The position numbers and the translations under genes were made by a program. From contig NW_020843386.1 in NCBI RefSeq assembly GCF_003704095.1, positions 1 to 64,000 of the forward strand: DNA of 64,000 nucleotides, read 5' to 3'. The notes under the pieces were generated by a model. It had not been told where the DNA came from. It was given only the letters and a program-made list of their open reading frames with translations, and did not search any database. The stretch's first letter is position 1, and each line of letters begins with the position of its first letter. The DNA comes from Pocillopora damicornis. Lineage: Eukaryota. Positions 1,078 to 57,441 of the stretch are shown here, piece after piece.

Positions 1078-1430
1078 AATGTGATTGAATTTTTGGCTCC
1101 CTTAATTACAGGGCTCAGCTTATGAATATAGCCTTGAATGACTGGAATTGTGAGAGCAAATATAAACATTATCAAAAGGTAGCATTTATCACTTGAGTAT
1201 ATCTCTAATATTCAGTTGTAATGCATATTTCATAACAAAAATCAATCAATTTGAAAAGAAAAAAANNNNNNNNNNNNNNNNNNNNNNNNNNNNNNNNNNN
1301 NNNNNNNNNNNNNNNNNNNNNNNNNNNNNNNNNNNNNNNNNNNNNNNNNNNNNNNNNNNNNNNNNNNNNNNNNNNNNNNNNNNNNNNNNNNNNNNNNNNN
1401 NNNNNNNNNNNNNNNNNNNNNNNNNNNNNN

Positions 1431-9384: not shown

Positions 9385-12300
9385 CAATGTTGAATTATCT
9401 GCGCATGAAATCTGGAAAGAAACTTCCTGCAAAGGACGCCATGACAGCTGTTCAGATCGATACTTCATATAGGATTCATTAATCATCGCACGTGCGGTGG
9501 TATTCTTGCGATGCGCCGCTGACCAACATTAGTTAGGAGGGGGAGAAAAGGGGGAAGGGTGGGGCAGGCAATGGGAAGAGCTGGAGGGGGAGGTAGGGGG
9601 GGTCCTGCTTTATTGAAAGGTGATTTCATCGTTAAAGGTCTGAATGAAAAACGAAACAAATCCAACAAACGCACAGATGTTGGGCTAACTGGTGAACCAA
9701 TGGGTTCAGCAGCTTAAAACATGGAGTTACCCGGCTGAGTTTAGAGGGGAACTAATAAATTGACAGGGTCTATAGAGGAAGACGGTTAGAGGAGTGGGTG
9801 GGGAAGAACAGGACTGTTGGTAATTAAACAGATAAGTAGATTAATCTCAATCATCTCTTATCTGTTCCAGGCAGTTGGACAGTTAAAATGGATACTGAAA
9901 TAGTTCACAGAAAAACGAAGCAAAAAAGAGGAAAGTTTGGTCAGGTTGAAAAAAAGGGGATTTAAGTTGCATAATGTTCCTTCATTTATTTGATCTGCCG
10001 CTAGTGTGGCACTGTTAATTTGTATATTCCTTTTGGATAACCATACATCTGGATTAGGTCAAGTCATCTCATGAATTAAACTTAACCTTTAAATCAACCA
10101 CAAAGATAGTTTTGAGCTGATTTACAAAAGTTTCCCAAAATTTCGACTTGCAGTATGCAGTCAAGATGTTGCAGTCCACTAAACATACCACAACAAGAAT
10201 ATTTCAGCGTGCAATAATTTAATCAAAATTGAAGAAACTTTATTCCTATCACTCTCAAATAAAATTCCTGCACTTAAATCTCATAAATAATACATATTTT
10301 CCTGTACAATTTACAGCTTGGATAAACTATCTCTAGACTAAGGAAACCTCTCTACTTGACTATATACCATTCCCTCTTCCGGAAAAATCTCTATATACAT
10401 TCAAAAAGATACCTTTTCAAACAAAGTATAGGAAATGGGCATAAAACCCAACTATCAAGTGTAAAAATGGTTCTTTTTTTTCAAGAGGATTGTGGCATAT
10501 TCAAAACCAAAAATTCACTTATCAATTTCATTCTTGACCCCTTGGGACACTGAGATAAACTGATTTAAAACCATCTTGAGATTTTCATCAAATTTGAAAA
10601 AAAGTTGTTGAAAGAGTTCTAAAAAGGAGATAATTACAGCGTTATGTGATACTTTGTGCAAACTGACCCAATGCTTAACATTTAAGCTCCCAAGAGTGAC
10701 CAAGACAGTATTTCTCCTTATAATAACAACACAGTATCAAACAGACAAGTGATGAGAATAAAGAAACATATCAATTACAGGAAAATCCATGGATCAAATA
10801 CCAACTTCTCCTACTTCAAAGGATATAGTACCAACGTATATGTAGTGGGGTCACATCACATCTCCCTAAACAGCACAGTACATAAAAGTTATTTCCTAAC
10901 ATCGGTCTCAAAAAATTTAAGGATCAAGACATTTCTGACAAAGTTAAATGCAAGTCAAACTGGTTTGAAGGCATTTTAACCTGAAATTCGTTTTCAAATA
11001 GAAAGACAGAAATACCGTAATTAACATTTTAAAGAAACAAGGAGTTCCAGCCCCTTGAGTAATTATTCAATTGTTGTATCAATCGTCTCATACTTTATGA
11101 ACCAGAGAAAGTTTGATAATTTCAATCTGCGAGTTTCATAATACATTTCGACTCAAAATTCACTTCGCATGGCAGAAGTATTGTACTGAAATAAACAAGA
11201 CAGAATAAAGCTGACGCCATTCGTTTTGAATAACACATGAACATGAAGAACATGAAACGGCACCAGTTTAAACTCATGAGACAAAGCCCACGTATTTATT
11301 TGAGGTAAATGAACTGGTTGGACCGAAAGCGAAATAAATAAACAATGAACTGACAGTGGTGAGGGATTTGGGGGCCATGTGATAAACAAGTTTTACCGAA
11401 GTTTGTCCTCTAGTCAGCCCTTCAAGCCCAAAGAGGCAATTAAAAAAATACTCACCAAAACACAAAAATCGGGGATGGTTGAGGCAAGACTTTAACCGTT
11501 GTTAAGATACACGCCTACATACCATGTATAACAGACTTGGAGAGCAAAAAGGCCAAAGACAGTTGTGAGCCATGACTTGGGAAATCCACCTCAACCTCCC
11601 GAAACCGATTTCGCCGAAGGCTGTTGTAAGAGCAACTCAATCCTGAAGCTGGAACATTTTTTAAAGCCTTGTGTGACTACAAAGAGAAAGAAAAGACAAT
11701 GTTATTTGAAGCGATTCGAAGCTTGGGGGCCACCTCCAACTTTACACAATTTTATTTCAAAGTTGCAGTAAAATAAGATCAAATTCTGAACTACCTTCTA
11801 TTATCGTAACGAATATCTCACGATCATCCCCACATACAACTTCNNNNNNNNNNNNNNNNNNNNNNNNNNNNNNNNNNNNNNNNNNNNNNNNNNNNNNNNN
11901 NNNNNNNNNNNNNNNNNNNNNNNNNNNNNNNNNNNNNNNNNNNTTTTTTTATTCTCATCACTTTTCTGCTTGATACTGTGTTGTCACTCTAAGGAGAAAT
12001 TCTGTCTTGGTCAGTCTTGGGAGCTAAAATGTGAAGCATTGGGTCAGTTTGCACGAAGTATCACATAACGCTGTCGTTATCTCCTTTTTAGGTCTCTTTC
12101 AACAACTTTTTTTCAAATTTGATGAAAATCTCAAGATGGTTTTAAATCAGTTTATCTCAGTGTCCCAAGGGGTCAAGAATGAAATTGATAAGTGAATTTT
12201 TGGTTTTGAATATGCCACAATCCTCTTGAAAAAAAAAAAGCACCATTTTTACAATCCAAGCTATAAATTGTACAGGAAAATATATATTATTTATGAGATT

Positions 12301-13220
12301 TGAGTGCAGGAATTTTGTAATATATTTATTTGAGAGTGATAGGAATAAAGTTTCTTCAATTTTGATTAAATTATTGCACGTAGAAATATTCTTGTTGTAG
12401 TATGTTTAGTGGACTGCAACATCTCGACTGCATACTGCAAGTCGAAATTTTGGGAAACTCATATAAATCAGCTCAAAACTATCTTTGTTGTTGATTTAAA
12501 GGTTAAATTAAATTCATGAGATAACTTGACCTGATTCAGACATATGGTTATCCCAAAGGAATGCACAAATAAATGGCGCAACACTAGCGGCAGATCAAAT
12601 AAAGGAAGGAAAATTATGCAAACTAAATCCTCTTTTTTCAATGCGACCAAACTTTCCTCCTTCTTTTCGCTTCTTCGTTTTACTGCTAACTATTNNNNNN
12701 NNNNNNNNNNNNNNNNNNNNNNNNNNNNNNNNNNNNNNNNNNNNNNNNNNNNNNNNNNNNNNNNNNNNNNNNNNNNNNNNNNNNNNNNNNNNNNNNNNNN
12801 NNNNNNNNNNNNNNNNNNNNNNNNNNNNNNNNNNNNNNNNNNNNNNNNNNNNNNNNNNNNNNNNNNNNNNNNNNNNNNNNNNNNNNNNNNNNNNNNNNNN
12901 NNNNNNNNNNNNNNNNNNNNNNNNNNNNNNNNNNNNNNNNNNNNNNNNNNNNNNNNNNNNNNNNNNNNNNNNNNNNNNNNNNNNNNNNNNNNNNNNNNNN
13001 NNNNNNNNNNNNNNNNNNNNNNNNNNNNNNNNNNNNNNNNNNNNNNNNNNNNNNNNNNNNNNNNNNNNNNNNNNNNNNNNNGGTCAGCGGCGCATCGCAA
13101 GAATACCACCGCACGTGCGATGATTTGTGAATCCTATACGAACTATCAATCTGGACAGCTGTCATGGCGTCCTTTGCAGGAAGTTTCTTTTCAGATTTCA
13201 TGCGCAGATAATCCAACATT
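9385..13220. repeat. Large imperfect inverted repeat (arms about 9385-10770 and 11944-13220)
   Basis: 9385-9524 is the reverse complement of 13082-13220, and 9900-10770 of 11944-12694; the rest of the right arm is N. Confidence 0.85.
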
Positions 13221-13824
13221 NNNNNNNNNNNNNNNNNNNNNNNNNNNNNNNNNNNNNNNNNNNNNNNNNNNNNNNNNNNNNNNNNNNNNNNNNNNNNNNN
13301 NNNNNNNNNNNNNNNNNNNNNNNNNNNNNNNNNNNNNNNNNNNNNNNNNNNNNNNNNNNNNNNNNNNNNNNNNNNNNNNNNNNNNNNNNNNNNNNNNNNN
13401 NNNNNNNNNNNNNNNNNNNNNNNNNNNNNNNNNNNNNNNNNNNNNNNNNNNNNNNNNNNNNNNNNNNNNNNNNNNNNNNNNNNNNNNNNNNNNNNNNNNN
13501 NNNNNNNNNNNNNNNNNNNNNNNNNNNNNNNNNNNNNNNNNNNNNNNNNNNNNNNNNNNNNNNNNNNNNNNNNNNNNNNNNNNNNNNNNNNNNNNNNNNN
13601 NNNNNNNNNNNNNNNNNNNNNNNNNNNNNNNNNNNNNNNNNNNNNNNNNNNNNNNNNNNNNNNNNNNNNNNNNNNNNNNNNNNNNNNNNNNNNNNNNNNN
13701 NNNNNNNNNNNNNNNNNNNNNNNNNNNNNNNNNNNNNNNNNNNNNNNNNNNNNNCTTTCATCACTGAGTTTTTCGTGTTTGGAAACCCTGATGAAACTCT
13801 TGCACTCGCTTTTAAAATAGCACT

Positions 13825-15463
13825 AAAGATGCTTGTGTCTACGAGTCCGTAAATGCACAATTTGAAAAAATTTGCTGTTTATTTGGCCATTAATAGAAAA
13901 CCAGTCTTGAACACCTGGATCTCTTTGGCAAGTTTGTCGTGGTTTTGTCGAGGTTCAATCTCTTCTTTACTCAAAGAGCTTCCGGGATAAAAAGTGCTGC
14001 GTGACAAGACAAAACAAATTTTGAAGGGGACCAGAGCACGCTATGTCACGCAGTTTTGGGCAATTTTAAAATTGACAGACTGACTTGCAAATTAGCAGTA
14101 AGAAGCTCAGTGAAGGAAAACCGCAAGCAGAAGCGCTAGTAGAGAACACAGAAAAAAGATGAAGGGCCGCTTAAACATTCTGCATGTTTTCCGTTTGTTT
14201 TTGGAGTTTTAGAAGAATGACGCATAATATCATAATGCTATAGCGGCATTTAGGAAATATTGGCTTAAGTTACCTCGCACGGATGCAATGTGTTATGACT
14301 GTTTGTTTGCTTTCAGAGGGTCGGTCAGCCGTCCGTTTCATGAAAATTAGTCTTGAAGACATAAACCTCTTTCGCGCTTCGCAAGTTTGCCGTGGTTTTG
14401 NNNNNNNNNNNNNNNNNNNNNNNNNNNNNNNNNNNNNNNNNNNNNNNNNNNNNNNNNNNNNNNNNNNNNNNNNNNNNNNNNNNNNNNNNNNNNNNNNNNN
14501 NNNNNNNNNNNNNNNNNNNNNNNNNNNNNNNNNNNNNNNNNNNNNNNNNNNNNNNNNNNNNNNNNNNNNNNNNNNNNNNNNNNNNNNNNNNNNNNNNNNN
14601 NNNNNNNNNNNNNNNNNNNNNNNNNNNNNNNNNNNNNNNNNNNNNNNNNNNNNNNNNNNNNNNNNNNNNNNNNNNNNNNNNNNNNNNNNNNNNNNNNNNN
14701 NNNNNNNNNNNNNNNNNNNNNNNNNNNNNNNNNNNNNNNNNNNNNNNNNNNNNNNNNNNNNNNNNNNNNNNNNNNNNNNNNNNNNNNNNNNNNNNNNNNN
14801 NNNNNNNNNNNNNNNNNNNNNNNNNNNNNNNNNNNNNNNNNNNNNNNNNNNNNNNNNNNNNNNNNNNNNNNNNNNNNNNNNNNNNNNNNNNNNNNNNNNN
14901 NNNNNNNNNNNNNNNNNNNNNNNNNNNNNNNNNNNNNNNNNNNNNNNNNNNNNNNNNNNNNNNNNNNNNNNNNNNNNNNNNNNNNNNNNNNNNNNNNNNN
15001 NNNNNNNNNNNNNNNNNNNNNNNNNNNNNNNNNNNNNNNNNNNNNNNNNNNNNNNNNNNNNNNNNAGGCAGTTTGCCTGCGTTGACTCTGAAGTCTGACT
15101 GGCTACTTGTGACATTTCCATTTATTCTGATTGCTCTGTTTTCACTTTGATATCACTCAATTGTATTACGATTTTTCCAAGTGTTATCAATTGAGTGTCC
15201 AAAAACCGAAACAAAAGTTATCACAACTTACTACCGATCAGAACAAATGTTACCATCATTATTGTCCAGTAAGAACAGAAAGCTTGAAGCGCGGGAAAAC
15301 GCGAGTGATCAGAGTGGGATTGATTTTTGTTCTGCATTTGACTGGTTGAAATGACGGCGCGAGTTTTCTGGTCCAATCAAAGAGCAAAGTAAAACAAAAC
15401 CGATGCAACTCAGGATCACTTTCGATTATCAATTGAAAAGTGCTCTATTCTACGTGCTAGAAT
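13825..15463 (+). repeat. Inverted duplicate of USP2-like introns 10-11 (source about 17331-18410)
   Basis: 13825-14330 is the reverse complement of about 17895-18410, including the exon 11 acceptor (ttgctttcag|agggtcggtcagc). 15067-15150 and 15414-15463 match 17331-17480. Confidence 0.82.
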
Positions 15464-26000: not shown

Positions 26001-27333
26001 GTTTACTTGAAATTTCTTCAAGAAGAAGTTGCACTTCAATGCATTTAATGCATGGTTAATGGAAGATTTTTAATTCCAAATGAATTTATTTAAAAAAATT
26101 TGACAGCAATCCACTGGATAGCTCTACTGTGGATTCCTGGGATAATTAATAATCCTCTGTAGAAGACTGAACAACAGATTGCTGAAACCGAGAAAAGGGA
26201 AAAATTGTGCCTTCATGACTGACCTACTGAAAATGAAATGAGCCAAAACATTTAAGGGGGTAATGAAAGTTTCTATAGAAACTGTATTTCTGTGTTGATG
26301 GGGGGTAGTACAAGATATCTGGTTTCATTGACTGAGTTAACCCTTCAACCATACAATTCTTATGATGTTAGTTCAGAGAATTGAGTATTGGATCAACTAA
26401 TTATCACCAAATTGATATTTTTCTTTATTCTCATTACTTATCTGGTTGATATTGAGTTGATATAGTTGTCACATAACTCACCGAGTTCGATGGGGACGAA
26501 TTTGAGGAACTAAACGACGATTGTCTCGCACACTTCATTTCTGATCCTGGCAGAGCAGTTATGGCACTTTTTCTAGCTGTGTCCACATGCACAATACTGT
26601 AACTGCTCCTGCTTGATGCTGATTTTTCCGAGGAATACGATTGTCCGTACTTAGTCCCATAGCTATTCAGAGTTGGAATTATTTCATTCCGAGGATCTCT
26701 GTAATCGGCATGCGTTGTAGATCCATAAATACCACTGCTACATGAAATACTACTTCCATTTAAAGTTGGTTTGGAGTTTGTGTTTCTCTGAGTGTACATA
26801 TGCCTAGTTTGGTATTTATCTGGTTCATGATCTCTCTTTTGTGTATAGAGATCTTCCTTAGGTCCCAAACTCGAGAGCGATTTCGACCGTCGTCCATTTG
26901 ACAACTCTCCATATCTAAAGCCACCTATCCTTTCTTTTCCATTGGAGCTTCCGTAACCAGAGTCACCTGAAACTTTACGCCGCGTTTTCGGAGATTCCCA
27001 TGTACTCGATTTTCTACTGTAAGTATCAGACAAGTATGATCCTCTAGCAGTACCTGCATGATTGCGACTAGAATTACTTTGGGCGACATATCTTACTCCT
27101 GCTTTATCCATTGAAGGTTTATCAGGTAGAGGACCTGGTCCGTGAGGTAGAGTTCTTCTAGTAGAGGAACTTGCGTTTTTAGTCCCCCTTGCACCAAAAG
27201 TTGACGAAAAACTACTAGATGTACCAGTACCAACCGAACTAGCTGCAACTGAGCGACTAGTTTTCACGGCACCAGAATTGTGATGCAAATGCCCCGAAGT
27301 TTCCCTACGAGTTTGTTGCATTGTCAAAGACAT
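17022..27333 (-). CDS. USP2: Ubiquitin carboxyl-terminal hydrolase, USP2/USP21-like (C19 family), about 654 aa, 12 coding exons
   Basis: Exons (minus): 26482-27333, 24796-24852, 24526-24649, 23347-23458, 22515-22628, 21766-21830, 21143-21246, 20100-20237, 19031-19109, 18532-18636, 17781-17907, 17022-17109. Phases are consistent and total 1965 nt. Motifs: Cys box [73 protein letters not shown], His box [24 protein letters not shown]. Long Ser-rich N-terminus as in USP2a. Confidence 0.93.
18637..19030 (-). other. U12-type (minor spliceosome) GT-AG intron in the USP2-like gene
   Basis: 5' end GTATCCTTTC. Branch-site-like TGACCTTAAT at 18651-18660 lies close to the AG with no polypyrimidine tract. 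The intron splits the His codon of LVL-H-LKRF. Confidence 0.85.
20369..20590. mobile_element. MITE with terminal inverted repeats in a USP intron
   Basis: ctggtacccgtttctcgaaagtcccc...ggaaccttcgagaaacggaacccag. Confidence 0.6.
23114..23265 (+). repeat. Dispersed repeat fragment (other copies near 40500-40640, 51577-51630, 53203-53300 and 60150-60220 inverted)
   Basis: Shared ctgatgaa.ggct....aaacgtcagcttt...tttac.gtggccaatttacgttatcaactcag. It resembles Penelope-like retroelement ends (inference). Confidence 0.55.
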
Positions 27334-27438
27334 TTGTACATCAATGGGATAACGAATCGCCTCTAGCAAAACCTATTACCAGGTTGATTTTTTATCGTAC
27401 AAAACAGTCATTAATCGAATAGTAAACCGTTTGTCTTC

Positions 27439-28014: not shown

Positions 28015-29250
28015 GGGAAATTTCCGTTTAGAAAGAAGTTATTAGTTTCCTGTTTTACTCGGAAGAAGTTCATCGGTTTACGATGCATTTTGAAAATGAA
28101 TCGCGACTGGTGTTTCTGCAACGACTTTCAAGTGAGTTGATTTGATTCTAAAACAAGAGCACATTTTTTTTCAAAAAGTATAAGTCCTCTGAAACGAACT
28201 AGCTCTTTTGAGGTAAAGAGAAGAGGCTCTGAATAAGTTTCCGCTCTTTGCAAAATCGGGAAAATGAAGAGTGATCATGTACAAAGTTACGTTGAACTGT
28301 AACTTAAAATTTAATATAACAACTCCTAACTCCTTTCTCAGTTCTTCAAGTTGAGAAAGATTTCTGTTACAAATACAGATTCAGGAAAGAGTCTTTAAAA
28401 AAGGAAATAAAAATATTATGAATAGATTAACAAACTGATTTTTAGGGTAAGTAAATCATTGTGGGGGGGGGTACGGTTGGGCTGAATCATAAAAGCGAAC
28501 ATCCTTGAAGTGAAAACAAACGAAAAAAACAAAAATTACATGGCATATACAGAACTAAAAAGCAAACCATCAAAACACTAATAATAACCCGGGTTGATCA
28601 TTACTTTCTTTCTTTAATAATATTCTAATAAAATGAGGAAATTAATACAGTCTCGTCACGCAATACATTGCGTGACACAAGCCAAGAACATGCACGCGAG
28701 AATGTATGACTATTTTAGGAAATAAAAGACACTTTTTAAAAACAGGTTTCGACAGTTCTTCTGTCATAATACAAAGTACAAAGTGGAATTTAAAGTGTAT
28801 AACAAAATGCTGATTGGACAAAACAAACAATAATAACAGAACTAATTAAATTAACATGATAAAGTTGATGATTAAGTGGCTCCCATTGATTGTGGATAGC
28901 GTCTTTGATTTTAAGTTGAGAAGTTGTGGATGCGTGATCTAAGATGTTCAAACACTCATCAGTATAAAGAGTACGACATTGTAGAGAATTATGTAGATTT
29001 CTGAAAATGTGAGAGTTATAACTATTTTTTAAAATTCGTATCTACCTGCTGAGGGATTTTCCCAAAATTCTCGGTAGCCCGTTGTAACGAAAATCGTTTT
29101 AACCCTCCGGAAAAACTGTTCCAACAAAAAGGAAGAGCTGGAACAGTAGGCAAATGAAACAGGAAGAATATACCATGCTGATCTTTTCAAAACGAAACCA
29201 AACGGGGAAGTCCCTTTGACTGCTGGCCAAGTAACGTGCATTCTGATTGG
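28015..29250 (+). promoter_or_regulatory. kappaB-type sites and CCAAT box upstream of the Bcl-3-like gene
   Basis: GGGAAATTTCC 28015-28025, GGGATTTTCCC 29053-29063, GGGGAAGTCCC 29204-29214; CTGATTGG 29243-29250. Confidence 0.65.
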
Positions 29251-29384
29251 TTAAGAACGAGGGAAGGTTAAAAATACACGTTACTACATCCTGCATCTCA
29301 ATCGAGAGACTTTGCATGCAGTTTTGCCTCTGAGTTATTAATGCGGCTGGCGCTTTGAGTTAAGTGATATTTTAGTGATTAAAA

Positions 29385-32300
29385 ATGGTAAGTACAACAG
29401 GGTTTGGATCAACTATGGAAGAAAGATATAAATTCGAGCTTAGCGTCGCCGATTACAAAACGAACGATCCTCAAGGCACTTCCGCCATACAACGAACGAA
29501 CTCCGATGCCTCTGTTCAACAGACGAGTAAAGATATAATCAAACAAAAACTGACCGCCAGAGTTTCCCCGATGACGCGACATCAGGAGCAATTTTTGGAT
29601 AGAAGACTTCATCCGCTGACTTTAGTTCCTAGTCGTGGAAAATCAACTCGAACATATGGAGCGAGCACCAAAACACAGCTTACCGATATTGGTACTGCTG
29701 CACCTTTCATAAAACGCGAACCGCAAAAACTTGCGGAGAAGCGAAAATTCCAAGCTACAAATGTTATAATTGCCCCTAAAACTGTCAAGTCAGACACTTC
29801 TCCCAGTAAACGAAAAAAATCCGAGACGAAAAAGCCCAGACCAATTCTGCCACGGACGATGCAAGGTTAGTAACCAAATTATGTGAACGCAAGCAGTTTT
29901 GTGATTCCATCCCAATTGTCATATCTCACAAAGAAATATTTCCATTTATCACTTCAAGAGCAATGGCTTGTTTGATACTTGAATAGTTATTGTAAAAATA
30001 AAACTGGCAAACTGAGATGCTTGCAAGGTATTTTGTAATTTTAGATAATTGTATGCAAGCGTCGACGAAGAGATAATTTATAATTCATTCTCTACATTCA
30101 ACAAAATATGTTTTTTTAATAATATTGTATATCACAACAGAATGTATATGATCTTTTACATGCATAATGCCAAAAAATTGGAGAAACATTTGTCGAACTA
30201 ACTCAGAAATAACTGAGAGACGATCACAGATATTAACTTTCACTTTCATTTGATGACGAGGGTTTTTAACGTCAGGCATGAGTTGACACGTTTTCAAAAT
30301 ATTGTAAATCACTGCATTTTTCGATGATACCATTTACTGCATTTTTCGATGATACCATTTACAACATTCAAAAGTAATGGTATGCCTTCTAATAAGGTTT
30401 TTGGCCAAAAAAAGTATGGACGGTGTCGCGCCGACAAAATTGGCAGAATTAGGGGGAGCCCCAAATTTCGTTAAATTTTTCACGTGCTCTCTACTTTCGC
30501 GTCATTTGGGAAAGTCCCCCACTCTTGGTAACGTGAAAAAAATGTTACTCCCAAACTTCCGGGGTTTCCCATATCGTTGCGAAAAAGGGAGATATTAAAA
30601 TATTTTTAAACTTCCGAAGACAAATATAATAGAGAGACTCAAATAAAAAATCCCAAGGCCAAGTTGCCATGTTTTCATATTCCACGTAAAGCAATACTCA
30701 GCATGTAATGTTCTCAGGGGGATCCCCTGAGGAAGAAATTGCCTTTTGGGCTTATCCATGGGGTCTCCCCTGGTGAGTAGTGCACAGTCAGCCTAGTGCA
30801 ACAGGACATAAGCAGGACAACTCAAAGTTCTAGCTTTAGAAAAAAAAATTTTTCAGAAATTGTTGATAATTTAAGGATAATGTGCTGCTCTTTTTTTCCC
30901 ATCATTTAACTTTCAGCAAAAAATCTGTTAAAATGCAGTTTTAACGAACATGGTTCCTTGAGACCACATTACATCTCATGCTTGAGACAGTCAAAATAAC
31001 AGAACTTGTTATGGTTTAGTTCCAGTTCAGCCAGAAGTTAAACCAGTTGTTGAACCAGCTGTTAAACCAGCTACACCTGTCAGTCCAGAACCTAAACTGA
31101 TGAGTGATAATGTGGCAACAATGAGTCTCCTGTCAGCCACAGAGTGTCACCTGGCAACACTTCAAGATGAAGATGGCGACACGTGAGTATTTTTTTTTAA
31201 TTTTAACTCTTTGTTTACTCTACATTATTCCACCTTTGCATGCAAGGGAGGGAATGTTCTTTTTTCTTTTGGGAAGAGAGATGAAGTGGTTGCAACATAA
31301 GAGTAAGGAAAGGGAAGATTTATGGTAAACAGGGGCAGGAAGGAGGAGGCAAGAATGGGGAATTAAACCCTTAACTCCCCCTGATCAAATTTGTAATTCT
31401 CTTTACTGTTAACCATACAATTCTCATAATGTTAGTTCAGAGAATTCAGCATTGGATCAACTTATTATCCACAAATTGATATTTTTCTTTATTCTCATCA
31501 CTTATCTGGTTGATATTGTATTGATATTGTAAGGAGAAATTCTGTCTTGGTCGCTAATGGGAGTTAAAGGGTAAATAGTGTAGGGACAGAGAAGAAAGGG
31601 TTAGCTAGGGAGGAGGGGTTGGGTGTGACAAAGTAGGAGGAGGGGTGTTGGGAAAGTAAGATTGTAAGGGGGCCAGATATTGGAAGGAAAGGGTGTTGGG
31701 TATAGAATGGGAAAATTGCATGTTAGGGAAGGAGTGGTTGGGTATAAATAGGTAGCAGATAGGAGGTAAGTTATGGGAGGTGAGGAAGTATTAGGAGCAA
31801 GAAAAAAGGTATGGTTTATAGATGGACAGTTTGTTGGGTTATAAGAGTTAAATTGCTAAGGGATAGTTTGGAGGAAGAACTAAGTTGTAGAAAGGGAGAG
31901 ATCTGAGGGCTTAAAGAGAAGGGAGAGAGCTTTCGATAACAGATTATTCTTCACATGCACATCAGTCTAAGAAACATTTTGATTTTTCGATTACTTGCAG
32001 GCCTCTTCACATAGCTATTGCACATGGGAACACCCAACTTGTAGAATACCTCATCAACCTCATGTCATGCCTAACACTGGACATTTATAACAACCTGAAA
32101 CAAACGCCGTTACACCTGGCTGTCATCACAGTACAACCTTATATTGTAGAAAAGCTTGTGTCTGCGGGAGCAAACGTGAACTTGCCTGATCGTAATGGTC
32201 AAACACCAACCCACCTAGCTTGCAATAGAGCAAGTGTAGAATGCTTAGAAACACTTGTAAAGGCAAGGAATACTCCTGACTTGGAGTTAAGGAACTTTAA

Positions 32301-33676
32301 TGGGTACACTCCTCTTCACGAAGCTGTACTTGCAGGTTGTTCTGGGGCAGTGACTTGTTTAATAAGACAAGGTGCTAAAGTTAATTGTAAGGTGAGTTAA
32401 TGGAGACAGTTTTATCAGCAAATACTTTAAAAAAATTCATAGTTAGTGGGTCAATGTTACAAAGAATCCTACAATACCAATAAGTTTTGCAAAAGAGTGT
32501 GCTCTCTTCCAACAGGTAGGCATTCCAGCTGATTTCACATTAAATAGACATGCTTGTCATCATAGCTTCTATTTCAGAAATATATTTTGGGTGATGTTTC
32601 TTTTTTTAACTTATTAAATAAGCACCCAACATTATAATTTCTGTTAAGTTGAGGAATATTTTATATCAAAGGCACTCTTATTAGAAACACTTGACTTCAC
32701 TCATACAAAATACATGCCTCTTTTTTCCTAATCATTTAAGGATGGTAAAGGTGGTCGTACCCCACTGCATCATGCAGTAGAGACAGAAAACATGGAAGTG
32801 ATACAAGAGCTGCTAAAGTGTGGTGCAAGTGCCAGTGAAGGAAGTTTCTCAGGGAACACTCCATTGCAGATAGCTAGTGGGCGCTCCATGCAGAACGTTA
32901 GGCTCCTACTGGAAGCAGCTAGCACTAACATCAAACCAAGCAAACATCGGGAGGTAAGGATCAAGTCAAACTTCTAAAACTTTAAATAAAATAAATAAAA
33001 AATTTTTTCACCTCCTCTTTCTCACTTTGGAGTGAAATGAAGCAACAGAAGAATGAATCTCCTTGATGCCATTGGATGCAGTTAATTTTGAGTTCCATTC
33101 CTAAACCATGCTTGAGGTTACTAAATTCTCCATTGGTAGAAAACTTTTAATTTGAGGCTAGTTGCGACAAGTTTTGATTGTGGATAGCTTCAATAAAACG
33201 CTGTCAACAATCAAAACTAGCCTCAATCCTCATCCATTCTTTCAAAACCTGTAAAGTCAGTTTTAGCCTCATAAAAAAAAGATGCTAACTAAAAGGGACT
33301 CACAATAAAACAGTAGAGTCAGTCTATCCCTGACTTCTGTGGCAGAAACAAAATGATGGTTTGAGATGAGAAGGACTACCAAAGATATGGTTCCCAGATG
33401 AAACTTCATGCCTGTACATGTTCAGGGTTGTAAGGAAGTTCAGCAGAACAAAACTACTACATGTGGCTTTAATATAGTTTCAAGTTAAACATTAATTTTT
33501 TTTTTTTTAGTTCCAGTGTTAATAATTGGTACAAGTTGCAGCTATGATTTGACATTAATTGATTAATTGTGCAAAATATTTAATTTCTGTAGATCACCCA
33601 TGTAGAAAAGTCTCCGCTGGTTTTGCCAAAGTATGACGACAGACGGCAAGTTATAGTGAAAAGCACCTATGCATAA
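29385..33676 (+). CDS. BCL3: Bcl-3-like IkappaB-family ankyrin-repeat protein, about 443 aa, 5 exons
   Basis: Exons 29385-29865, 31020-31182, 32001-32391, 32741-32953, 33593-33676 (1332 nt, in frame). The ankyrin domain QDEDGDTPLHIA..LDIYNNLKQTPLHLAVIT..DRNGQT..RNFNGYTPLH..GRTPLHHAVE..GNTPLQIASGR closely follows human BCL3. Basic NLS-like SPSKRKK in the N-terminus and no DSGxxS degron. Confidence 0.88.
30452..30770 (+). promoter_or_regulatory. Cluster of five kappaB-type sites in intron 1 of the Bcl-3-like gene
   Basis: GGGGGAGCCCC 30452-30462, GGGAAAGTCCCC 30508-30519, GGGGTTTCCC 30561-30570, GGGGGATCCCC 30717-30727, GGGGTCTCCCC 30760-30770, in otherwise AT-rich DNA. Confidence 0.65.
31363..31574. 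mobile_element. About 200-bp piggyBac-type MITE in intron 2 of the Bcl-3-like gene
   Basis: Ends ccc-ttaactccc...gggagttaaaggg. The family body gtaattctc...ttggatcaact...gtaaggagaaattctgtcttggtc recurs more than 10 times in the window. Confidence 0.75.
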
Positions 33677-48267: not shown

Positions 48268-48330
48268 GGGATTCCTTTTTATAGGAGCGTGCAGTCATCA
48301 TCGGGGAAACCCCCTCACCTCGGCCCAATC
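48268..48330 (+). promoter_or_regulatory. kappaB site and CCAAT box upstream of the second IkappaB-family gene
   Basis: GGGGAAACCCC 48303-48313, a weaker GGGATTCC 48268-48275 and CCAAT near 48325, about 200 bp upstream of the ATG. Confidence 0.6.
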
Positions 48331-48511: not shown

Positions 48512-51500
48512 ATGTCTGGTAAGTTGAGTTTTATGTCAAGCACTGCATGCAATCAAATTCGCAGTGTTTGCTTTCTCAGGGTGCACGTCATCAAAACCTC
48601 GCACATATTTACAAGATTATGACTAGAAAGTGTTAAAATATTTCGATACTTTCAGGAGAAAGTCGAAAGCGTCGGCATGGATCTGCAACAACGGGGAAAG
48701 AATGTGTTGGGTTGGATCCATTAGATGAAGAGCGCCGTTCTACTGTTGAGAACAAACCACCCTCTGTGCTGGCTTGCGTGACAGACCCAATCGAAGGAGA
48801 TTCGGGGCTCGACAAATCTTCGTCCCTATCGGACGACCTTCACGGTAAACAAGGAAGTAAAGCTAATTCGAAGAAAGAGGCCACTGAACATGATGAGGCA
48901 GACATCGTGGATGTAAAAGCATCTTCTTCCTCAAAAGTTGTATCAGGTTTGTCCACGTTAGGAGAGGTCGCGGATCCATCACCCTCAAATACCAACGTAA
49001 CTACACCTCATACCTTAGTGCAATCAAACGACTGTGTACGGACTGTAGCGGAAACATCACCCATGCCTGATCTCTTTGCACAAGATGACGATGGAGATAC
49101 GTAAGTTGAGAATATGTATTTATTCATTTCATTTTTCTTCACTCAGCTGTTACAGCTCCTCGTGAAACAGTATTGCAGATAGACGCTCTTCCTCGTAGGA
49201 GATAAGTCTGGAAGGGCCATCTCGGAAATAAATACCATGTAAAATCATTTAGACATTCCTCTTCAATTCCAGACATTCGAATGTGTATGTATTTCAATTT
49301 GGTGTACGTCCTAAAGAGCATATTATCTCGCCGACCAGTGACATAACATATCAATGTTTTGATATGAGGCGATCTTTGATATTCAGTTTGAAATGTTCGA
49401 AATTAAACCATCAAAAACTCTGCACGAAATTCCTACTGATGGCAAGTCATTGATGACATGATGATGACATGCCAGTGACCTTAGCAAATTGATCATAGTC
49501 TAAACATTTATAGTCCACGACGTGAATATGGACTCCAAATGATTAAGAATATTTAAAGCGAAAATGCTTACGTCGGCACATTCTACATTATTTGACTGAA
49601 TTATGTAAACGTTCATGCGGAGAAGTCACGAAGGAGAAAATGATTGTGACTCCTAAACCAACGATCCGAGCGAGAAAGAGCGGTACGCGAACAAAACAAA
49701 AACTCCAGCATTTAAGTACTAACTGCTTGGACCGAAAAAGGTAGCAGCGACACATACCTCGAACAAAAATTATCATTTAATTTTTTTTTATTTTAATTCA
49801 AGCTGAGGGAAGTTTAAGAATAGCGTGTTAGCCCCACACTGAGGAAGACGTCTTGGAAGTAATCGAAGGACGTACTCAAACAAAACACATTTTATTGGTT
49901 TCCATTGATCTGTTTTGGTTTCTAGAAGACAAAGTTGATTGGTTACCATAAGGAAATTCCTCTCGACACTTCATGGAATGCACAAAAAACATGATTGCGG
50001 TAAAAAAAAAGTCAAATTTTTGCGATACAGATATGTATATATCTATATTTAACAAGCCTTTGGTTGAGTGATTTTACGGACAGGAAGACTTCACTCGGTA
50101 AACCATGCAAATCTACGTGATGAATGTAAAAGGTTCGAAAGAGGCTAAATAGATCTCAGTTTCTAACACTGAAGACTATAAAGAATGCTTCACAAAGCGA
50201 TGGAATGAAAAACAATTATTTATCACAATTTTTCTGGAATCGTTTTGGCTGCCGACCTCTTATATTTTGAAATATAAGAGAGAGCAAAAATTTAGATTCT
50301 TTCTTGTCGGTCTTACCCTCAATTTCGTTCTGCTCTCAAGGTGAACAGACATGCGGAAGTCGAATCGCATATTTTTCATCGTTCGAACTCAGGTTCTCAT
50401 TATCACTCACTGACCTTGTCGTAAGAGAGAGTTTAGGTTAAAGAAATTTCCCTTTTTCTTCACAGGTTCCTACATATTTCTGTGGTACAGGGTGACCAAC
50501 CACTGAGTCAGTTTTTCATTGAGAAAATGAAGTCAAGAGGGGTTGATATTTTCAACAAGCTTAGACAAGTACGTAACTTTTCGATTAAAGGAAAAGAAAA
50601 AACTGTAGATTATCTGTCAAGAGTGTAAAGCAAAGAAGGGAAGCGGGTACAATGATTTCATTTGGCGACAAAGATATAAATGTCCAGGATTATGTTTATT
50701 CCTTTTCATCCTCATTAATTGTTAGCAACTTTTGTTGCCGATAGCAGCGGCGTTCGTGACACGTGTTACATGTAAACCTAAGATAAATTTGTAATATTGA
50801 CTGACTATGAGGTCGATATGGCTTGATATTCACCGACCTCTTTAACAAGCTGATGAGAGAGCAAGGCCATATCAAGCCAATTCGACCGAACTTGGTCAAT
50901 ACACCGTATTTCACGTGGCTGCAAAATCGTCTTCGAGTAAACGAAGAGAACGAGTCACGGCGAGAGATATTTTCAACCCAAGAAGATGAAGTAACATCTA
51001 CAGAAGGAAATTTGATGTCCCCGCGATCGCTCGCAGAAAGAGATGCTCACGGCCAAAGACTTTCAACTACAGCACGGTAACTCATCAATAACCTTTGTTT
51101 TTCAGACACCGTTACATCTTGCTGTGATTACTCATCAAAAATATCTTGTGGAAAAGCTGGTAGAGGGCGGAGCGGATGTTAATTTGATGGACAGGCACGG
51201 ACAGACCGCCCTTCACTTGGCCTGTCAAAATGGTGACATCCATTCTGTCCTAGCTATTCGTGACGTCACACATAGATGCCACATGCAAATAAGACTGGAT
51301 CTGAAAAATTTCCAAGGTGAGCACATTACGACAGTACCACGAGGAGCCGCGGTTGATTGAAGTTCATGATCTACGGAGCCACTACTTTACTTTCAGCTGA
51401 TTCGTTGCCGGTTGATGTCTGGTGACCCCAAGTTTATGGTGAACCTAACTCTAAGCTGTTGCATTTCAGCCATGGATTGGATCAGACGTATTGTTCGGCA

Positions 51501-54411
51501 GGCATTGCACCACCCTCATGGGAGCCTGGCCGTTCACCTTAAATATTAAAAAAAAAACTAGCTGATTCATTTTAATGGAGGGCTAACACTCGAATGGTCA
51601 GCTGCAGAATCTCTCTTCGGTAGCCAATTCACTTAAACCGGGGAGCCGCAAGTGGGAGTTTTTCCTATTACGGTAAAAAATCTCTCGCGGCATCACCTCT
51701 TGTTTTCAAAGCTTTGCTACTTGATGCCTCAACACACTCACAAATCAGACAGCGACGCAGGTTCAAGGTGCAACTGAAATTGTGGTGTTTGCCAGAATGT
51801 CACGTTTTGGTCGAAGTCGTTTTATTGGACTTCTAATGATGGTTGGACTATATTATCTGGAACATCATATTTTTGAGTAATGCACAAGCCTGGGGCCGTT
51901 GTTTCAGTAGTGGCACCTGCTAATCCTGGATTAGACGCTAAATTCAATTGATTTTGATTAGTCTTGTTGATAAAAGCTTCGGTTGGGGTTAACGGTTTGT
52001 GGGGGCAAGCGTGCTGTCATGAAAAACTGAAGAGAGCAACATCTAAAAAAATTGAAACTAACCTTGGGATAATCTTGAGTTAACTTTAACGTGATTTGAC
52101 CAAACCAGCAAAGGTCTATTTTTGAAGAAGTAATGCTGGCCTTTTACTTTTGCAGGATTTTCAGTGCTTCATGTGGCGACTTTGAATGGAAATAAACAGC
52201 TTGTTGAAACAATTCTTGACATGGGAGCAGACATTAACGATCAGGTTATTTACCAATTCGTAACTCACTTCTTAATTCGTAGTTTCTAAGAACAAGAGAC
52301 GATGAGGTAAGGAGACTGAAAGCTTCTATGTTGTCTTCCCATTGTGCGCCGGTCGCTCTTGAGTTATTTTTAGAACATGTCCTAAGATTTTCTAAGATTT
52401 GCAAGACAAACAGTTGGTTTGATTTTATTGTAGTCTAGAATTCGATCGGCTTTGCTCTACGACGCTCTGTGATTTTTGCAATCAGTTGCAAAGCTTAGAC
52501 AAATCGCGACTTGATCACCCCTGTTTTCTCGCTCTTCAGACAATTAAGGTCATTCTCCTCAAATAGAACCCCTTCACCCCTCGAGATTTCCGTGAAATAT
52601 TACATATTGGTTGTTTATCTTGCAGGGACGTAAATTTTAAAATAAAAAATGGGATCCCTGTGCTCGTCTAAGAGCAGCAGTGCCCTTTAGATAAACATAT
52701 AACTACTGAAATCATTAAAAAATTTACAATTTTCTTGATTGTGATTGGTTTTAAAAATTATATTTTCCACTAATTTACATGTCAATTTGTTATTGGACGG
52801 TCTGTCATCGGACGATTCAATGGGCCAATAACTTTCAAGGTTGTAATTTATATCAACCAATCACATTCATTTTGATTGCAGTCAATGTCAGAGCAACGTT
52901 AAATAATTAACGCCTCCTTAGTCAGTCTTTTAATGCAAATTAAGAAAAAGAAGCAAATGATAGGTAATTGTGCTTGTCTACCAGAAATTGTCTACCTCTG
53001 TGATAAACTCCGACCACGAAGAAAAACCCCCCATTTTTTTATGTGCGTGCGCTAGTTAACAATGAAATTATGCAAAGTTAGGATGCACAATGCAATAAGG
53101 CGGAATAGACCTGATTTGTCTTTTTTAGCTTTCATCGGCTTCATAGTGGTTGAGATTAACGTTAAGTTTTAACATGAAAGGAAGTAAAACAGTAACGTCG
53201 CTCAGACGAAGGATCAAAGCTCTAAACGTCAGCCTTTAAACTCTTTACGGTGGCCAATTTACGTTATCAGCTCAGTTCATAACACTAAATTACCCTGTTA
53301 AACAGTAACACTTGATAACTGATAACTCTTAACATTTCTCAGGATTCCAACAGTGGTCGTACAGCTTTGCATCACGCAGTGGAGGCTGGGAAAAATCATG
53401 TGGTAGAGTACTTGATAACACGTGGTGCTGACGTCAACAAAGTTACGTTCGCTGGAAACACTCCGCTTCACACGGCTAGCGGTCGGGACATGGATCAGAT
53501 GGTGAAACTTCTTATTCAACACGGTGCCAACGTAAACATTGCTAACCTAGAGGGTGATATTCCGAAAGTGGGACAAACAAGTGAACAGGTAGGGGTTCCT
53601 CATTTCTTTTTAAACCCTGATTTAAAGTCTTTAAGTTTCATGGGCGCCTCGCACTTCCCACACTGAGCAGTGCCTCCCCCCCCGTCTCTCGAGTTGGACG
53701 TGATATGTCCTTAAAAGTTTTATAGCGGAGCTTGAAGCGCGCGCAGCGAAGCCCCATACTTATCAAGAATGGTATTCTTGCGTCAAATGTTGGTTAGTTG
53801 ACAGGAAAATTTTAACCAAACTGCCTCTGCCATAATATTGAAAGCCAGTGCCGGGAGCTTTTCATGAAATTAGGAGTGTTTTTAAAAGAGCACGCCTTTG
53901 GGTTAAACGGATGGAGAAATTTAGACTAAATTTCTCAAGTATGTCTATTGCACTCGGTGCCAGTCTTCTCCATCCCTTACTGTAGTTAGTTTTGAGAACT
54001 TTTCAAGTAAGTATCAAAAACCTGAAAACCAAAGTATTCACAATGGCGAATCAGAGCAAAGGTAGACATCGTTATCAGCCAATGAGAACTCATAATAAAA
54101 AACAAGCAAACTGCTTGAAGCGCAGGTAAAGCGCAGGTGACCAAATCGCGACTGGTTTTCAGTTTCGCATCTGATTGGTTGAGGGGATGGTGCGAGTTTT
54201 CTGGACCAATGACAGAGCGAAGTAATACAGCAGCGGCGGATTGAGGGAGGCTTGGGTCGAGTCGTTACGCGCCCTTTCTCGAGGTTTTACTTCAATTAAA
54301 GAGAGTTTTGATATAGAATCTTCAGTGACAATGTTGTCATCTTGTTTTTATTATCAGGCGAAGAGACATTTCCGATCCAAAGAAAAACAAACCAAAAGGA
54401 GAAAAAAATGA
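48512..54411 (+). CDS. IkappaB-family (IkappaB/Bcl-3-like) ankyrin-repeat protein, about 384 aa, 7 exons
   Basis: Exons 48512-48518, 48656-49100, 50466-50568, 51106-51316, 52156-52244, 53343-53588, 54358-54411 (1155 nt, in frame). Ankyrin motifs QDDDGDTFLHISVVQG..DIFNKLRQTPLHLAVIT..DRHGQTALHLAC..KNFQGFSVLHVA..SGRTALHHAVE..GNTPLHTASGR. DSGLDKS at 48799-48819; basic RKRRH at the N-terminus and KRRKK at the C-terminus. Confidence 0.88.
53995..54228 (+). repeat. Dispersed repeat (other copies near 15175-15450, 17465-17600, 36815-37097 and 52430-52545 inverted)
   Basis: Shared aaactgc.tgaagcgc...tctgattggttgag.ggatgg..cgagtttt.tggaccaat.acagagc. Confidence 0.7.
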
Positions 54412-55737
54412 TCCTGACAAATTATCTGCACAAGATCAATCACTCTGACGGGAACTGAGGAACTTGGTTTGAGTTGACTGAAGTCGTGCTCAGGAGCCTG
54501 GGAAATTTGAGTCTTATGCGGTGTCGCTCATATTTTGTTGTGGGAATGCGCCGGCCGGAGTAATTACTTGCAACTTGAGATGCTTTGAACGTGGCCGTAA
54601 GCATCAAGATGGAGATGACAGTTCCAATTGAAAAGTTACAGTTCTAAACCATTAACGTTGAAAAAAAAAACCGCTTTCTCGCAATCGCTTCCTATGTTTA
54701 CCTTTTATGTTCTTATGTTCACTTCCTAGCTCTGGCTTTCTGCTAAATATCCACTGCTTTGCTATTTTCACCAAATTTGAGTGCAACAGCACTTTGTCCA
54801 AACAATTATCACTGAACTTGGTCAAATCGGCTTTGCAACTCTTGGATATGATTTGGACTTGTGACTTACAAACTAAAATAGTCATGCTTTTATAAATTCA
54901 CGGTGTTTTGTGGCTTTCAATAGATAATTTATTAAGCGGATATCACACACAAACAAGTAGTTTTTTTTAATCAAAAGTTTAAGGGAAGAAGATAAAGCAT
55001 TTCTCGAAAATGAATGATTTCCCTAGTAATAGACAACTGTTTACATTTGGACAAAGTCTTAACCGCACGCATCATTTTAATGCAACATGTTGCAATATTA
55101 TTGCGTGAACGTGTTACAAACGTTTGGCCACCCTAAGCAACATATTGAATGGTGTTGGATCAAGTTTGAAAATGGTCAAATTTTGTTGCAACATTTTTGG
55201 ATTCTGCAAGATGATGCGCGCCTTTGGCCAGCTCTTTCACAACATCTCAAATATAAGATGTTGCGTTTAAAGGTTGCGTTTAAATGTTGCGTGTGTTCTT
55301 GGGCCATATGCATTAGATAAAGCTAGCAATTTACCTTTAATAAAGGAGTTGATTTTATCTCATGTTGCTGAGGTCGGAAATTAATATTGAGTTTTCCATA
55401 TGAGAATTTTCCAGCGTGGTTGCATTTTATTCAACTTTTATTGCATTAAGTGAACAAACAATATTTGCTAAAGGTTTGACGAGGTAAACTTGTACACGCC
55501 ATGAAATTATGAGTTGCGACATTACGAAGGAAAAGCTATCGATAAAAGCTGTTTTTCACCTATCGAAGTTTCAATATGAAATTTGGTAGGCTAGTCTCCT
55601 GAGTAGCTTTCTTTATTTTTGAAAGGATCAATACCAATGACATTTCCAATTGAATCGCAACTCGCCCACATCCATCGACATAAATTGCAGCCTGTCTTGC
55701 AGACGTTTGCTTTAGTTTGTTTCTCTATTCGACCCAG

Positions 55738-56505: not shown

Positions 56506-57441
56506 TCAAACAGTGTGACTGACAATACTGACTGAATTTCTCTTGACCTTCGGGAAAATTGTTGTAATTGGGAGCGTGCTTCTGAACGCCTTTATCCGCA
56601 CAGAGTATAAGATAGGATTTAACACTGAAGAAAAACAAGCCAGGGTAGTTGTACCTAGCCATAACTGAGTGTCGGCCCAAAATTTTGGCGCTGAAAGGTG
56701 AATCGCCGAATCAATCAAACCTGGAAGCCAACAAAGTGCAAACGAGCCCGTCACCATAGCAACAGTCATGACGGCTTTGTATTCTTTCAGGAAACAGGGT
56801 TGGTGCTGATTTGAGCGGGTTTCTTGCACTTTTATCAATCTTTTCTGCCTGTTGGCTTCCTTGAAGATTCGCACGTAGAAATAGGAAATAAACACAAATG
56901 GAATACCAAAGATGCCCATAAAGAGGGCAAAATGGCCCTGCCCTGATATGCCACAGTTGTTTTTCAGTGATATTAATGATACTAGAAGGGATGAGGTCCA
57001 AATTACTGCGATGATTTTTCCGCACTTTCGTGGGGTAAGTCTACTTTGGTATTGAAATGGTGCAGTGACACCTACATAGCGGTCGTAACTTAACGCAAGA
57101 AGGTTTAGCGAGGAAGCAGACAGTGTCAAAACCACAATCACCGTGAACAAGTTATGCACGTTTTCCTCGATGAAGTGTGCCTTTTGAAGGAGTTTTAAAC
57201 ACCACACTGGCACACCCAATGTTGCAATCAGCAAATCGGCAACGGCGAGGGAAACAATCCAATAGTTTGTCATGGATCGTAGCGCAGGTTTGTGACAAAT
57301 CACCAAAATGACCAAAATGTTTAAAAAAATCGCTGCAATTCCACAGACTCCCGACAGCGAAAGGATAGTGATCAGAGAACTTGTTGAGACAGTGAAAGAG
57401 TGTTGCGAGCAATCCTTGTGAAAAATTGTTGAATTTTTCAT
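56506..57441 (-). CDS. Single-exon class A (rhodopsin-like) GPCR, amine/adenosine-receptor-like, 311 aa
   Basis: Intact ORF with seven hydrophobic segments and class A motifs: N in TM1, SLAVADL, DRY, W in TM4, FALCWLP, NPILY. The ligand cannot be assigned. Confidence 0.9.
   Translation of the reverse strand: MKNSTIFHKDCSQHSFTVSTSSLITILSLSGVCGIAAIFLNILVILVICHKPALRSMTNYWIVSLAVADLLIATLGVPVWCLKLLQKAHFIEENVHNLFTVIVVLTLSASSLNLLALSYDRYVGVTAPFQYQSRLTPRKCGKIIAVIWTSSLLVSLISLKNNCGISGQGHFALFMGIFGIPFVFISYFYVRIFKEANRQKRLIKVQETRSNQHQPCFLKEYKAVMTVAMVTGSFALCWLPGLIDSAIHLSAPKFWADTQLWLGTTTLACFSSVLNPILYSVRIKAFRSTLPITTIFPKVKRNSVSIVSHTV

What the first reader, a model, noticed from the sequence alone, without database searches (positions are those of the whole stretch)
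30452..30770. Five kappaB-type sites in 320 bp of intron 1 of the Bcl-3-like gene
Seen: five GGG..CCC elements, including the reverse complement of the classic GGGACTTTCC, in AT-rich DNA. Several are G/C-rich 11-mers of the p50-homodimer type. Established: cnidarian NF-kappaB is p50/p52-like, Bcl-3 binds p50/p52 dimers, and human BCL3 has an intronic NF-kappaB-responsive enhancer. Inference: an ancient or convergent intronic autoregulatory enhancer or inducible internal promoter.
Basis: partly seen in the sequence, partly recalled or inferred. Interest (0 to 1): 0.7.

Follow-up and report, generated by a model that had tools for sequence, protein, structure and literature searches.

The report
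Coral Bcl-3 intronic NF-κB site cluster
The first intron of a coral immune-regulator gene (Bcl-3) holds five NF-κB-type DNA sites, two of them kept as a spaced pair in distantly related corals, which likely form a feedback enhancer through which NF-κB switches on its own regulator.

Summary
Five κB-consensus sites lie at 30452–30770 in intron 1 (29866–31019; splicing seen in RNA contigs) of a Pocillopora Bcl-3-like gene. No shuffle reached five (0 of 5000), and the stretch is single-copy. All 5 orthologous loci that cover this part of the intron (three other coral lineages) carry a κB pair 57–65 bp apart, matching sites 1–2, followed by an ETS-type and an E-box-type motif. The window's intron is otherwise unalignable to theirs. 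Sites 3–5 have no counterpart there. Two promoter κB sites are also conserved. The genome has a p100/p105-type NF-κB gene, and in the sea anemone Nematostella NF-κB is published to induce the Bcl3 promoter while Bcl3 dampens it. Best reading: a conserved intronic NF-κB-responsive enhancer, expanded in Pocillopora, that likely strengthens a negative-feedback loop. Binding and enhancer activity are untested. An internal promoter is unsupported: no junction from the donor-like site after site 5 in 3 of 3 RNA runs laid closely. Homology with the human BCL3 intronic enhancer could not be shown. Verdict: a new member of a known kind, of moderate interest.

The parts
30452..30462 (.). κB site 1 (G/C-rich 11-mer); first member of the conserved pair; central bases vary between corals
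   Evidence: one RNA-contig allele has A>G at 30457 that keeps the consensus
30481..30486 (.). E-box-type CACGTG between sites 1 and 2 (label recalled); exact or CATGTG form at +35..+39 in L009/L010/L013/L014, only further downstream in L006
30508..30518 (-). κB site 2, classic Ig-κ type on the minus strand; most conserved site (identical 11-mer in L006, L009, L010; 10-mer variants in L013, L014)
   Evidence: the site1–site2 pattern has one match in the 234-Mb genome
30556..30561 (-). ETS-type motif CTTCCG (label recalled), abutting site 3; second copy at 30611-30616; one or two copies 104–162 bp from site 1 in all six introns examined
   Evidence: background chance about 0.011 per 100 bp; motif chosen after seeing the alignment
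30561..30570 (.). κB site 3 (10-mer); no counterpart in the 5 orthologous loci
30717..30727 (.). κB site 4, centre of a 19-bp near-palindrome; no counterpart in orthologues; lies in the CpG-poor zone
30760..30770 (.). κB site 5; no counterpart in orthologues; overlaps an ATG (30758) and is followed by a donor-like GTGAGT at 30773 that was not seen used
29053..29063 (.). promoter κB site A, conserved in L006 and L013
29204..29214 (.). promoter κB site B, conserved; followed by a conserved CTGATTGG (CCAAT box) at 29243-29250
29385..29865 (+). Bcl-3 coding exon 1 (basic N-terminal region, conserved KLTARVSPM block)
29866..31019 (+). intron 1, 1154 nt, phase 1; CpG o/e falls from 1.22 to 0.20 near 30621
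31020..33676 (+). Bcl-3 exons 2–5 (31020-31182, 32001-32391, 32741-32953, 33593-33676), ankyrin-repeat domain; whole protein 443 aa

Best explanation
This is a cluster of five κB-consensus sites in intron 1 of the coral Bcl-3 gene, built around a site pair that other coral lineages keep, and it likely acts as an NF-κB-responsive intronic enhancer that works with two conserved promoter sites to drive negative feedback. Mechanism: processed p50/p52-like NF-κB homodimers would bind the pair (inferred from published DNA-binding data for Nematostella NF-κB). ETS- and bHLH-type factors would keep the region open and unmethylated (inferred). Bcl-3 transcription would rise, and Bcl-3 protein would then bind the same dimers and damp its own gene (shown for the Nematostella promoter in human cells, inferred for the coral). 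Sites 3–5 are probably Pocillopora-lineage additions that raise the gain of the response.
For: Shown here: enrichment far beyond chance; single copy, not a repeat; host gene is a Bcl-3 orthologue and is spliced as modelled. A pair 57–65 bp apart occurs in 5 of 5 orthologous loci, with shuffle P ≤ 0.0045 each. BLASTN finds only 12-nt chance matches between the window's intron and the others, and the only match between L006 and L009/L010 is 29 nt around site 2. One such pair in 393 kb of background. ETS-type and E-box-type motifs occur in the module but not in the 5' parts of four introns tested. Two promoter κB sites are conserved. The one RHD gene found has the His-containing p50/p52-type loop, a glycine-rich region and ankyrin repeats, and has κB sites near its own 5' end. 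Literature: PMC3630861 (passages, section 24, part of supplement): Nematostella NF-κB binds like human p52 (r 0.95), induces a 700-bp Nvbcl3 promoter reporter, and NvBcl3 attenuates this. Near-match probes to sites 2–5 score Z 1.2–1.8, and a probe one base from site 1 scores 2.73. PMC10775530 (passage): human BCL3 represses itself with p50 at enhancer HS3.
Against: No binding, chromatin or reporter data exist for this element. None of the five exact sites is among the 803 array probes, and shifted probes containing site 1's core bind weakly (Z 0.60, -0.62, -0.80). Site 1 in L006, L013 and L014 fits GGG-N5-CCC but not the strict consensus. Spacing is not fixed (5.3–6.2 helical turns). Within-genus variants are not depleted in the sites (1 of 12 in sites, 1.3 expected). 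The five loci are only three lineages (L013/L014 99% alike, L009/L010 97%, and those two groups align at 70%). G-rich intron 2 of several orthologues also yields scattered broad-pattern matches, so the broad pattern has false positives. Loose triplets are not enriched genome-wide (17 against 28 for the reversed control; most are tandem repeats).
Confidence: 0.7

Rival explanations
1. The module is an NF-κB-inducible internal promoter that makes a short, ankyrin-only Bcl-3 isoform (an IκB-like pure repressor) through an alternative first exon in intron 1.
For: ETS and E-box motifs and CpG richness are promoter-like (PMC11292947 passage on unmethylated promoters in annelids). An ATG and a strong donor-like GTGAGT follow site 5, and with the third AG (31031) the frame is open into exon 2. 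An annotated Actinia isoform X2 replaces the N-terminus with 8 residues at about the exon 1/2 boundary. A 256-aa member starting at the exon-2 Met sits in the Stylophora cluster.
Against: No junction from 30772 in X17, X18 or X19, where all joints were listed, nor among the best-supported joints (15 hidden). The branch into exon 2 in X17 is intron retention. The donor is absent at this place in L009, L010, L013 and L014. With the acceptor actually used (31020) the frame stops after 31 codons. No TATA. The 256-aa protein may be a truncated contig. Contigs drop rare forms, and the samples may be uninduced.
Confidence: 0.12
2. Only the conserved pair (sites 1–2) is functional; sites 4–5, and perhaps 3, are recent neutral look-alikes.
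For: Sites 3–5 are absent from all 5 orthologous loci. Sites 4–5 lie beyond the CpG drop, in presumably methylated gene body. Site 4 is the centre of a longer palindrome.
Against: Three extra consensus sites within 210 bp are very unlikely at the background rate of 0.04 per kb. No variant hit sites 3–5 in the contigs covering them (low power).
Confidence: 0.3
3. The sites are read by a ZAS/HIVEP (Schnurri) zinc-finger protein rather than by NF-κB, or the two compete.
For: ZAS proteins bind the κB or similar motifs and compete with NF-κB (PMC1361774, passages). The orthologous site 1 keeps only the outer GGG/CCC.
Against: The host gene is an NF-κB co-regulator whose anemone promoter responds to NF-κB. 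Relaxed centres are among the top binders of Nematostella NF-κB. I did not search the genome for a Schnurri gene.
Confidence: 0.06
4. The module mainly sets the 3' edge of the unmethylated 5' domain, protecting exon 1 and the promoter from gene-body methylation, rather than enhancing inducibly.
For: The CpG o/e change point lies 113–211 bp after site 2 in the window, L006, L013, L014 and L010.
Against: L009 gives +667 and the intervals are wide. The drop is also about 1.1–1.2 kb from the ATG in the window, L006 and L013. The NF-κB gene shows the same 5' drop, so it is a general gene-body feature. CpG o/e is only a proxy for methylation.
Confidence: 0.07
5. Chance cluster or transposon fragment.
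For: Tandem repeats can create such clusters elsewhere in the genome.
Against: Single copy, no tandem unit, shuffle P < 1/5000, pair conserved in other lineages.
Confidence: 0.02

Closest known systems
Human BCL3 intronic enhancer HS3 (Ge et al. 2003; Brocke-Heidrich et al. 2006; seen only as titles in reference lists and as summarised in PMC10392061 and PMC10775530)
   Same: Intronic κB element in a Bcl-3 gene that also has promoter κB sites; NF-κB induction and p50/Bcl-3 self-repression logic.
   Different: Five sites, with a conserved pair plus ETS/E-box motifs. Lies in intron 1, whereas I recall HS3/HS4 being in human intron 2 (unverified). The only RHD gene found is p100/p105-type, with no RelA-type gene seen. 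No sequence homology was tested.
Nematostella Nvbcl3 and NvIκB promoters as NF-κB targets (PMC3630861)
   Same: Same gene family and phylum; NF-κB induces and Bcl3/IκB attenuate; the coral promoter has two conserved κB sites.
   Different: The published test covers only 700 bp upstream of the ATG; no intronic element appeared in the passages I read.
Homotypic κB clusters of NF-κB feedback genes such as NFKBIA, TNFAIP3 and NFKB2 (recalled)
   Same: Multiple κB sites on a negative regulator of the pathway.
   Different: Here most of the sites are intronic, and cluster size differs between coral lineages (2 against 5).

Membership tests
κB site cluster | matches to GGGRNNYYCC / GGG-N5-CCC above chance | tested here: met
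κB site cluster | a cognate NF-κB with a p50/p52-type recognition loop in the genome | tested here: met
κB site cluster | binding by cnidarian NF-κB | tested here: inconclusive
   exact sites not on the published array; near probes Z 1.2–2.7, shifted site-1 probes weak
intronic enhancer | lies in a spliced intron, unique sequence | tested here: met
intronic enhancer | motif conservation against diverged flanks | tested here: met
   sites 1–2 in 5 of 5 loci, three lineages; not met for sites 3–5
intronic enhancer | open chromatin, and distance- and orientation-independent activation | not testable with these tools
   needs ATAC/ChIP and reporter assays
internal promoter | alternative first exon spliced to exon 2 | tested here: not met
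   no such joint in 3 of 3 RNA runs; contigs can drop rare forms
cnidarian Bcl-3 (nuclear IκB) | orthology with Nematostella Bcl-3, apart from cnidarian IκB | tested here: met
   groups with Nematostella Bcl-3 at modest support (82/88), with the IκB-like L007 outside; shared KLTARVSPM block
cnidarian Bcl-3 (nuclear IκB) | no IKK degron; basic N-terminal clusters | tested here: met
   no DSG-S motif, KRKK/KKPRP present; the paralogue has DSGLDKS
vertebrate BCL3 orthologue | closer to BCL3 than to other IκBs | tested here: inconclusive
   best IκB-family PDB hit is BCL3 (176 bits against 133 for IκBα), but the IκB-like paralogue also prefers BCL3 (173 against 128); the tree has no vertebrate IκBα/β/ζ rows and its deep forks are open
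homologue of human HS3 enhancer | same intron and continuous conservation through anemones and bilaterians | not testable with these tools
   no anemone or bilaterian genomic DNA available; location of HS3 not found in the passages read

The most novel reading that the evidence does not exclude
The conserved κB–E-box–κB–ETS module is an inducible internal promoter: on NF-κB activation, corals and anemones switch from full-length Bcl-3 to a short ankyrin-only isoform that acts as a pure IκB-like brake. This would be a promoter-switch feedback loop kept since the main coral lineages split, with Pocillopora adding three sites to tune it.
Probability: 0.12. Interest if true: 0.75.

Novelty: new member of a known kind. 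Interest (0 to 1): 0.45.

Why it matters
NF-κB is implicated in coral immunity, symbiosis and bleaching (recalled), but endogenous NF-κB-responsive enhancers in corals are little mapped. This gives a short, unique, footprinted candidate with built-in contrasts (conserved pair against lineage-specific sites, two against five sites), usable as a reporter of NF-κB activity and as a test of whether feedback gain differs between coral lineages. It also suggests that intronic κB control of Bcl-3 exists in both corals and humans, by descent or convergence. The regulatory logic itself is already known.

Tried and rejected
Repeat or transposon origin: rejected. First protein search with exon 3 was crowded by generic ankyrin proteins and was useful only for finding the 443-aa record. 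The exon-1 search from L013 gave 4 hits and no named close relative, so L009/L010/L013/L014 are placed only by the tree and the intron alignment. In the tree the L014 row held exon 1 only, and the script failed after printing the tree. In one search row P0132 was mis-cut and should be ignored. DNA run X14 showed no substitutions, so it gave no footprint; variant depletion was not significant. Low-depth intronic RNA contigs cover introns 1, 3 and 4 as well and were rejected as evidence of enhancer RNA. Contig starts near 29296–29305 in two runs are not evidence of a start site. The triple-motif genome pattern found nothing because its 10-mer form does not fit the window's own site 2; uninformative. 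Helical phasing is not conserved. CpG boundary as a specific function: not separable from distance to the promoter. Of the 16 loci, 11 do not cover intron 1: four are the IκB paralogue (L007, L008, L011, L012), L001 is intron-less, L002–L005 and L016 show no exon-2 match, and L015 is a distant 30% match. Earlier-findings look-ups returned nothing. Ge et al. 2003 is not held in the library. Searches for a published coral Bcl-3 intronic element listed no such paper; subscription journals are not covered.

Full report
Observation. The five elements are present as described: 30452, 30508, 30561, 30717 and 30760. Of 11 consensus sites in the 64-kb window, 5 lie in this 319-bp span and 2 more in the promoter of the same gene. 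No dinucleotide shuffle of the intron or of the span reached five (0 of 5000, three definitions), and 200 block shuffles of the window gave at most 3 in 320 bp. The genome holds 15,155 strand matches of the consensus in 234 Mb. In 393 kb of background there were 15 sites, never two within 320 bp. The stretch is single-copy, and the site1–site2 pattern has one match in the genome. A looser triplet pattern matched 17 times at 9 places, mostly tandem repeats, against 28 for the reversed control, so loose triplets are not enriched in general. The κB consensus and the ETS and E-box labels are recalled; the GGRRNNYYCC form also stands in PMC3630861.

The gene. The exons are 29385–29865, 31020–31182, 32001–32391, 32741–32953 and 33593–33676, giving 443 aa. 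The product is identical (443 of 443) to a protein annotated as Bcl-3-like in Pocillopora damicornis. All four introns are seen as joints in RNA contigs of 4 of 4 runs. The protein groups with Nematostella Bcl-3 (support 82/88), apart from the IκB-like paralogue. It shares an N-terminal block with Nematostella Bcl-3, lacks an IKK degron and has basic clusters. Its best IκB-family structure hit is human BCL3, but the paralogue's is too, so orthology to vertebrate BCL3 is not settled here. The one RHD gene found in the genome is of the p100/p105 type, with the His-containing recognition loop, a glycine-rich region and ankyrin repeats.

Footprinting. A metagenome scan returned 16 loci. Five cover the relevant part of Bcl-3 intron 1: L006, L013 and L014 in full, and L009 and L010 for the last 655 nt. 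All five carry two GGG..CCC sites 57–65 bp apart (56 in the window). The second is identical to window site 2 in L006, L009 and L010 and is a 10-mer variant in L013 and L014. The shuffle probability of such a pair is at most 0.0045 per intron, and one such pair occurs in 393 kb of background. These are three lineages: L013/L014 are sister to Pocillopora and Stylophora (99/99), L009/L010 align with L013 at 70%, and L006 falls outside that clade and shares a 7-residue deletion with Acropora and Montipora. The window's intron does not align with any of them, and the only match between L006 and L009/L010 is 29 nt around site 2. An ETS-type CTTCCG lies 104–162 bp from site 1 and an E-box-type motif lies in the module in all six introns. 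Neither occurs in the 5' parts of the four introns tested; both motifs were picked after seeing the alignment. Sites 3–5 have no counterpart in the five loci. The promoter keeps two κB sites and a CCAAT box in L006 and L013. Against this reading: site 1 in L006, L013 and L014 is not a strict consensus match, spacing is not in phase, intron 2 of several orthologues gives scattered broad matches, and variants within the genus are not depleted in the sites (1 of 12, 1.3 expected).

Binding evidence from print. In PMC3630861 (I saw passages, section 24, part 1 of 18 of the supplementary table and three searches in it), Nematostella NF-κB binds much like human p52. NF-κB induces a 700-bp Nvbcl3 promoter reporter, and NvBcl3 or NvIκB attenuates it. 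The exact five sites are not among the 803 probes. Near probes give Z 1.79 (site 2), 1.24 (site 3), 1.77–1.82 (site 4) and 1.65 (site 5). For site 1, a probe one base different gives 2.73, but shifted probes give 0.60 or less. Human BCL3 self-repression with p50 at HS3 is summarised in PMC10775530 (passage), and an intronic NF-κB enhancer is cited in PMC10392061 (passage). The primary papers were seen only as titles. I recall, without verification, that these enhancers are in human intron 2 and that human intron 2 interrupts the DGDT motif as coral intron 2 does. If so, the coral module sits in a different intron and is convergent. Passages of PMC8959985, PMC12221839, PMC11292947, PMC1361774, PMC3258214, PMC3474797 and PMC11311860 were also read; PMC4931663 gave no hits for my terms.

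Internal promoter. An ATG and a strong donor-like site follow site 5, but the frame is open only with an acceptor not seen in use. The donor is not conserved, and no such joint appears in 3 of 3 RNA runs laid closely. The reading stays open at low odds because an annotated Actinia isoform swaps the N-terminus for 8 residues at about the exon 1/2 boundary, and contigs lose rare or inducible forms.

CpG. CpG o/e drops from 1.22 to 0.20 at about 30621, just after the conserved module, so sites 4–5 lie in presumably methylated gene body. Similar drops follow the pair in L006, L010, L013 and L014 but not clearly in L009. Because the drop is also about 1.1–1.2 kb from the ATG and the NF-κB gene shows one too, I treat it as context only.

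Mechanism and verdict. Shown: a non-random, unique κB cluster, a pair conserved across coral lineages, conserved promoter sites, a Bcl-3 host gene and a cognate NF-κB gene. Inferred: binding, enhancer activity and negative feedback (confidence 0.7). It works like the human BCL3 intronic enhancer; homology with it is untested. The searches listed no paper describing an intronic element in a cnidarian Bcl-3, within a library that lacks most subscription journals. It is a new member of a known kind; interest 0.45.

Noticed in passing
window ~48514-54500 (+): A second IκB-family gene, with a degron-like DSGLDKS, lies about 15 kb downstream of Bcl-3 on the same strand. It has a promoter κB site at 48303 followed by CCAAT; both are conserved in L011 (2892). 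Unlike Bcl-3, its gene body is not CpG-depleted.
   Followed up: partly
G000:C998:726118-727331 (L060): The NF-κB gene's 5' region has three κB-type sites, one identical to Bcl-3 promoter site B, which suggests autoregulation.
   Followed up: partly
window 31379-31572 (intron 2) and ~26337-26460: A highly repeated short element with very high contig depth and many loose ends; a similar copy overlaps the end of the upstream ORF. Possibly a MITE.
   Followed up: no
window 29385-29393 and orthologues L001, L006, L013: The start codon is followed by a donor-like GTRAG in all corals seen (ATG GTRAG); no joint from it was listed.
   Followed up: partly
window 30311-30360: Perfect 25-bp tandem duplication in intron 1, upstream of the cluster.
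   Followed up: no
window 26434-27372 (-): A 312-aa Ser/Arg-rich ORF without a Pfam match, divergent from Bcl-3, containing a consensus κB match at 26990.
   Followed up: no
window 59785 and 63477: Isolated consensus κB matches near a 7TM receptor ORF (56506-57459) and inside an ORF of the ribosomal L17-like region.
   Followed up: no
window 1-4000 and 12001-15000: Very low GC bins (16–28%), possibly N runs or AT-rich repeats.
   Followed up: no
proteins P0125 vs P0304: Actinia Bcl-3 has an annotated short isoform with an 8-residue alternative N-terminus joined at about the exon 1/2 boundary.
   Followed up: partly
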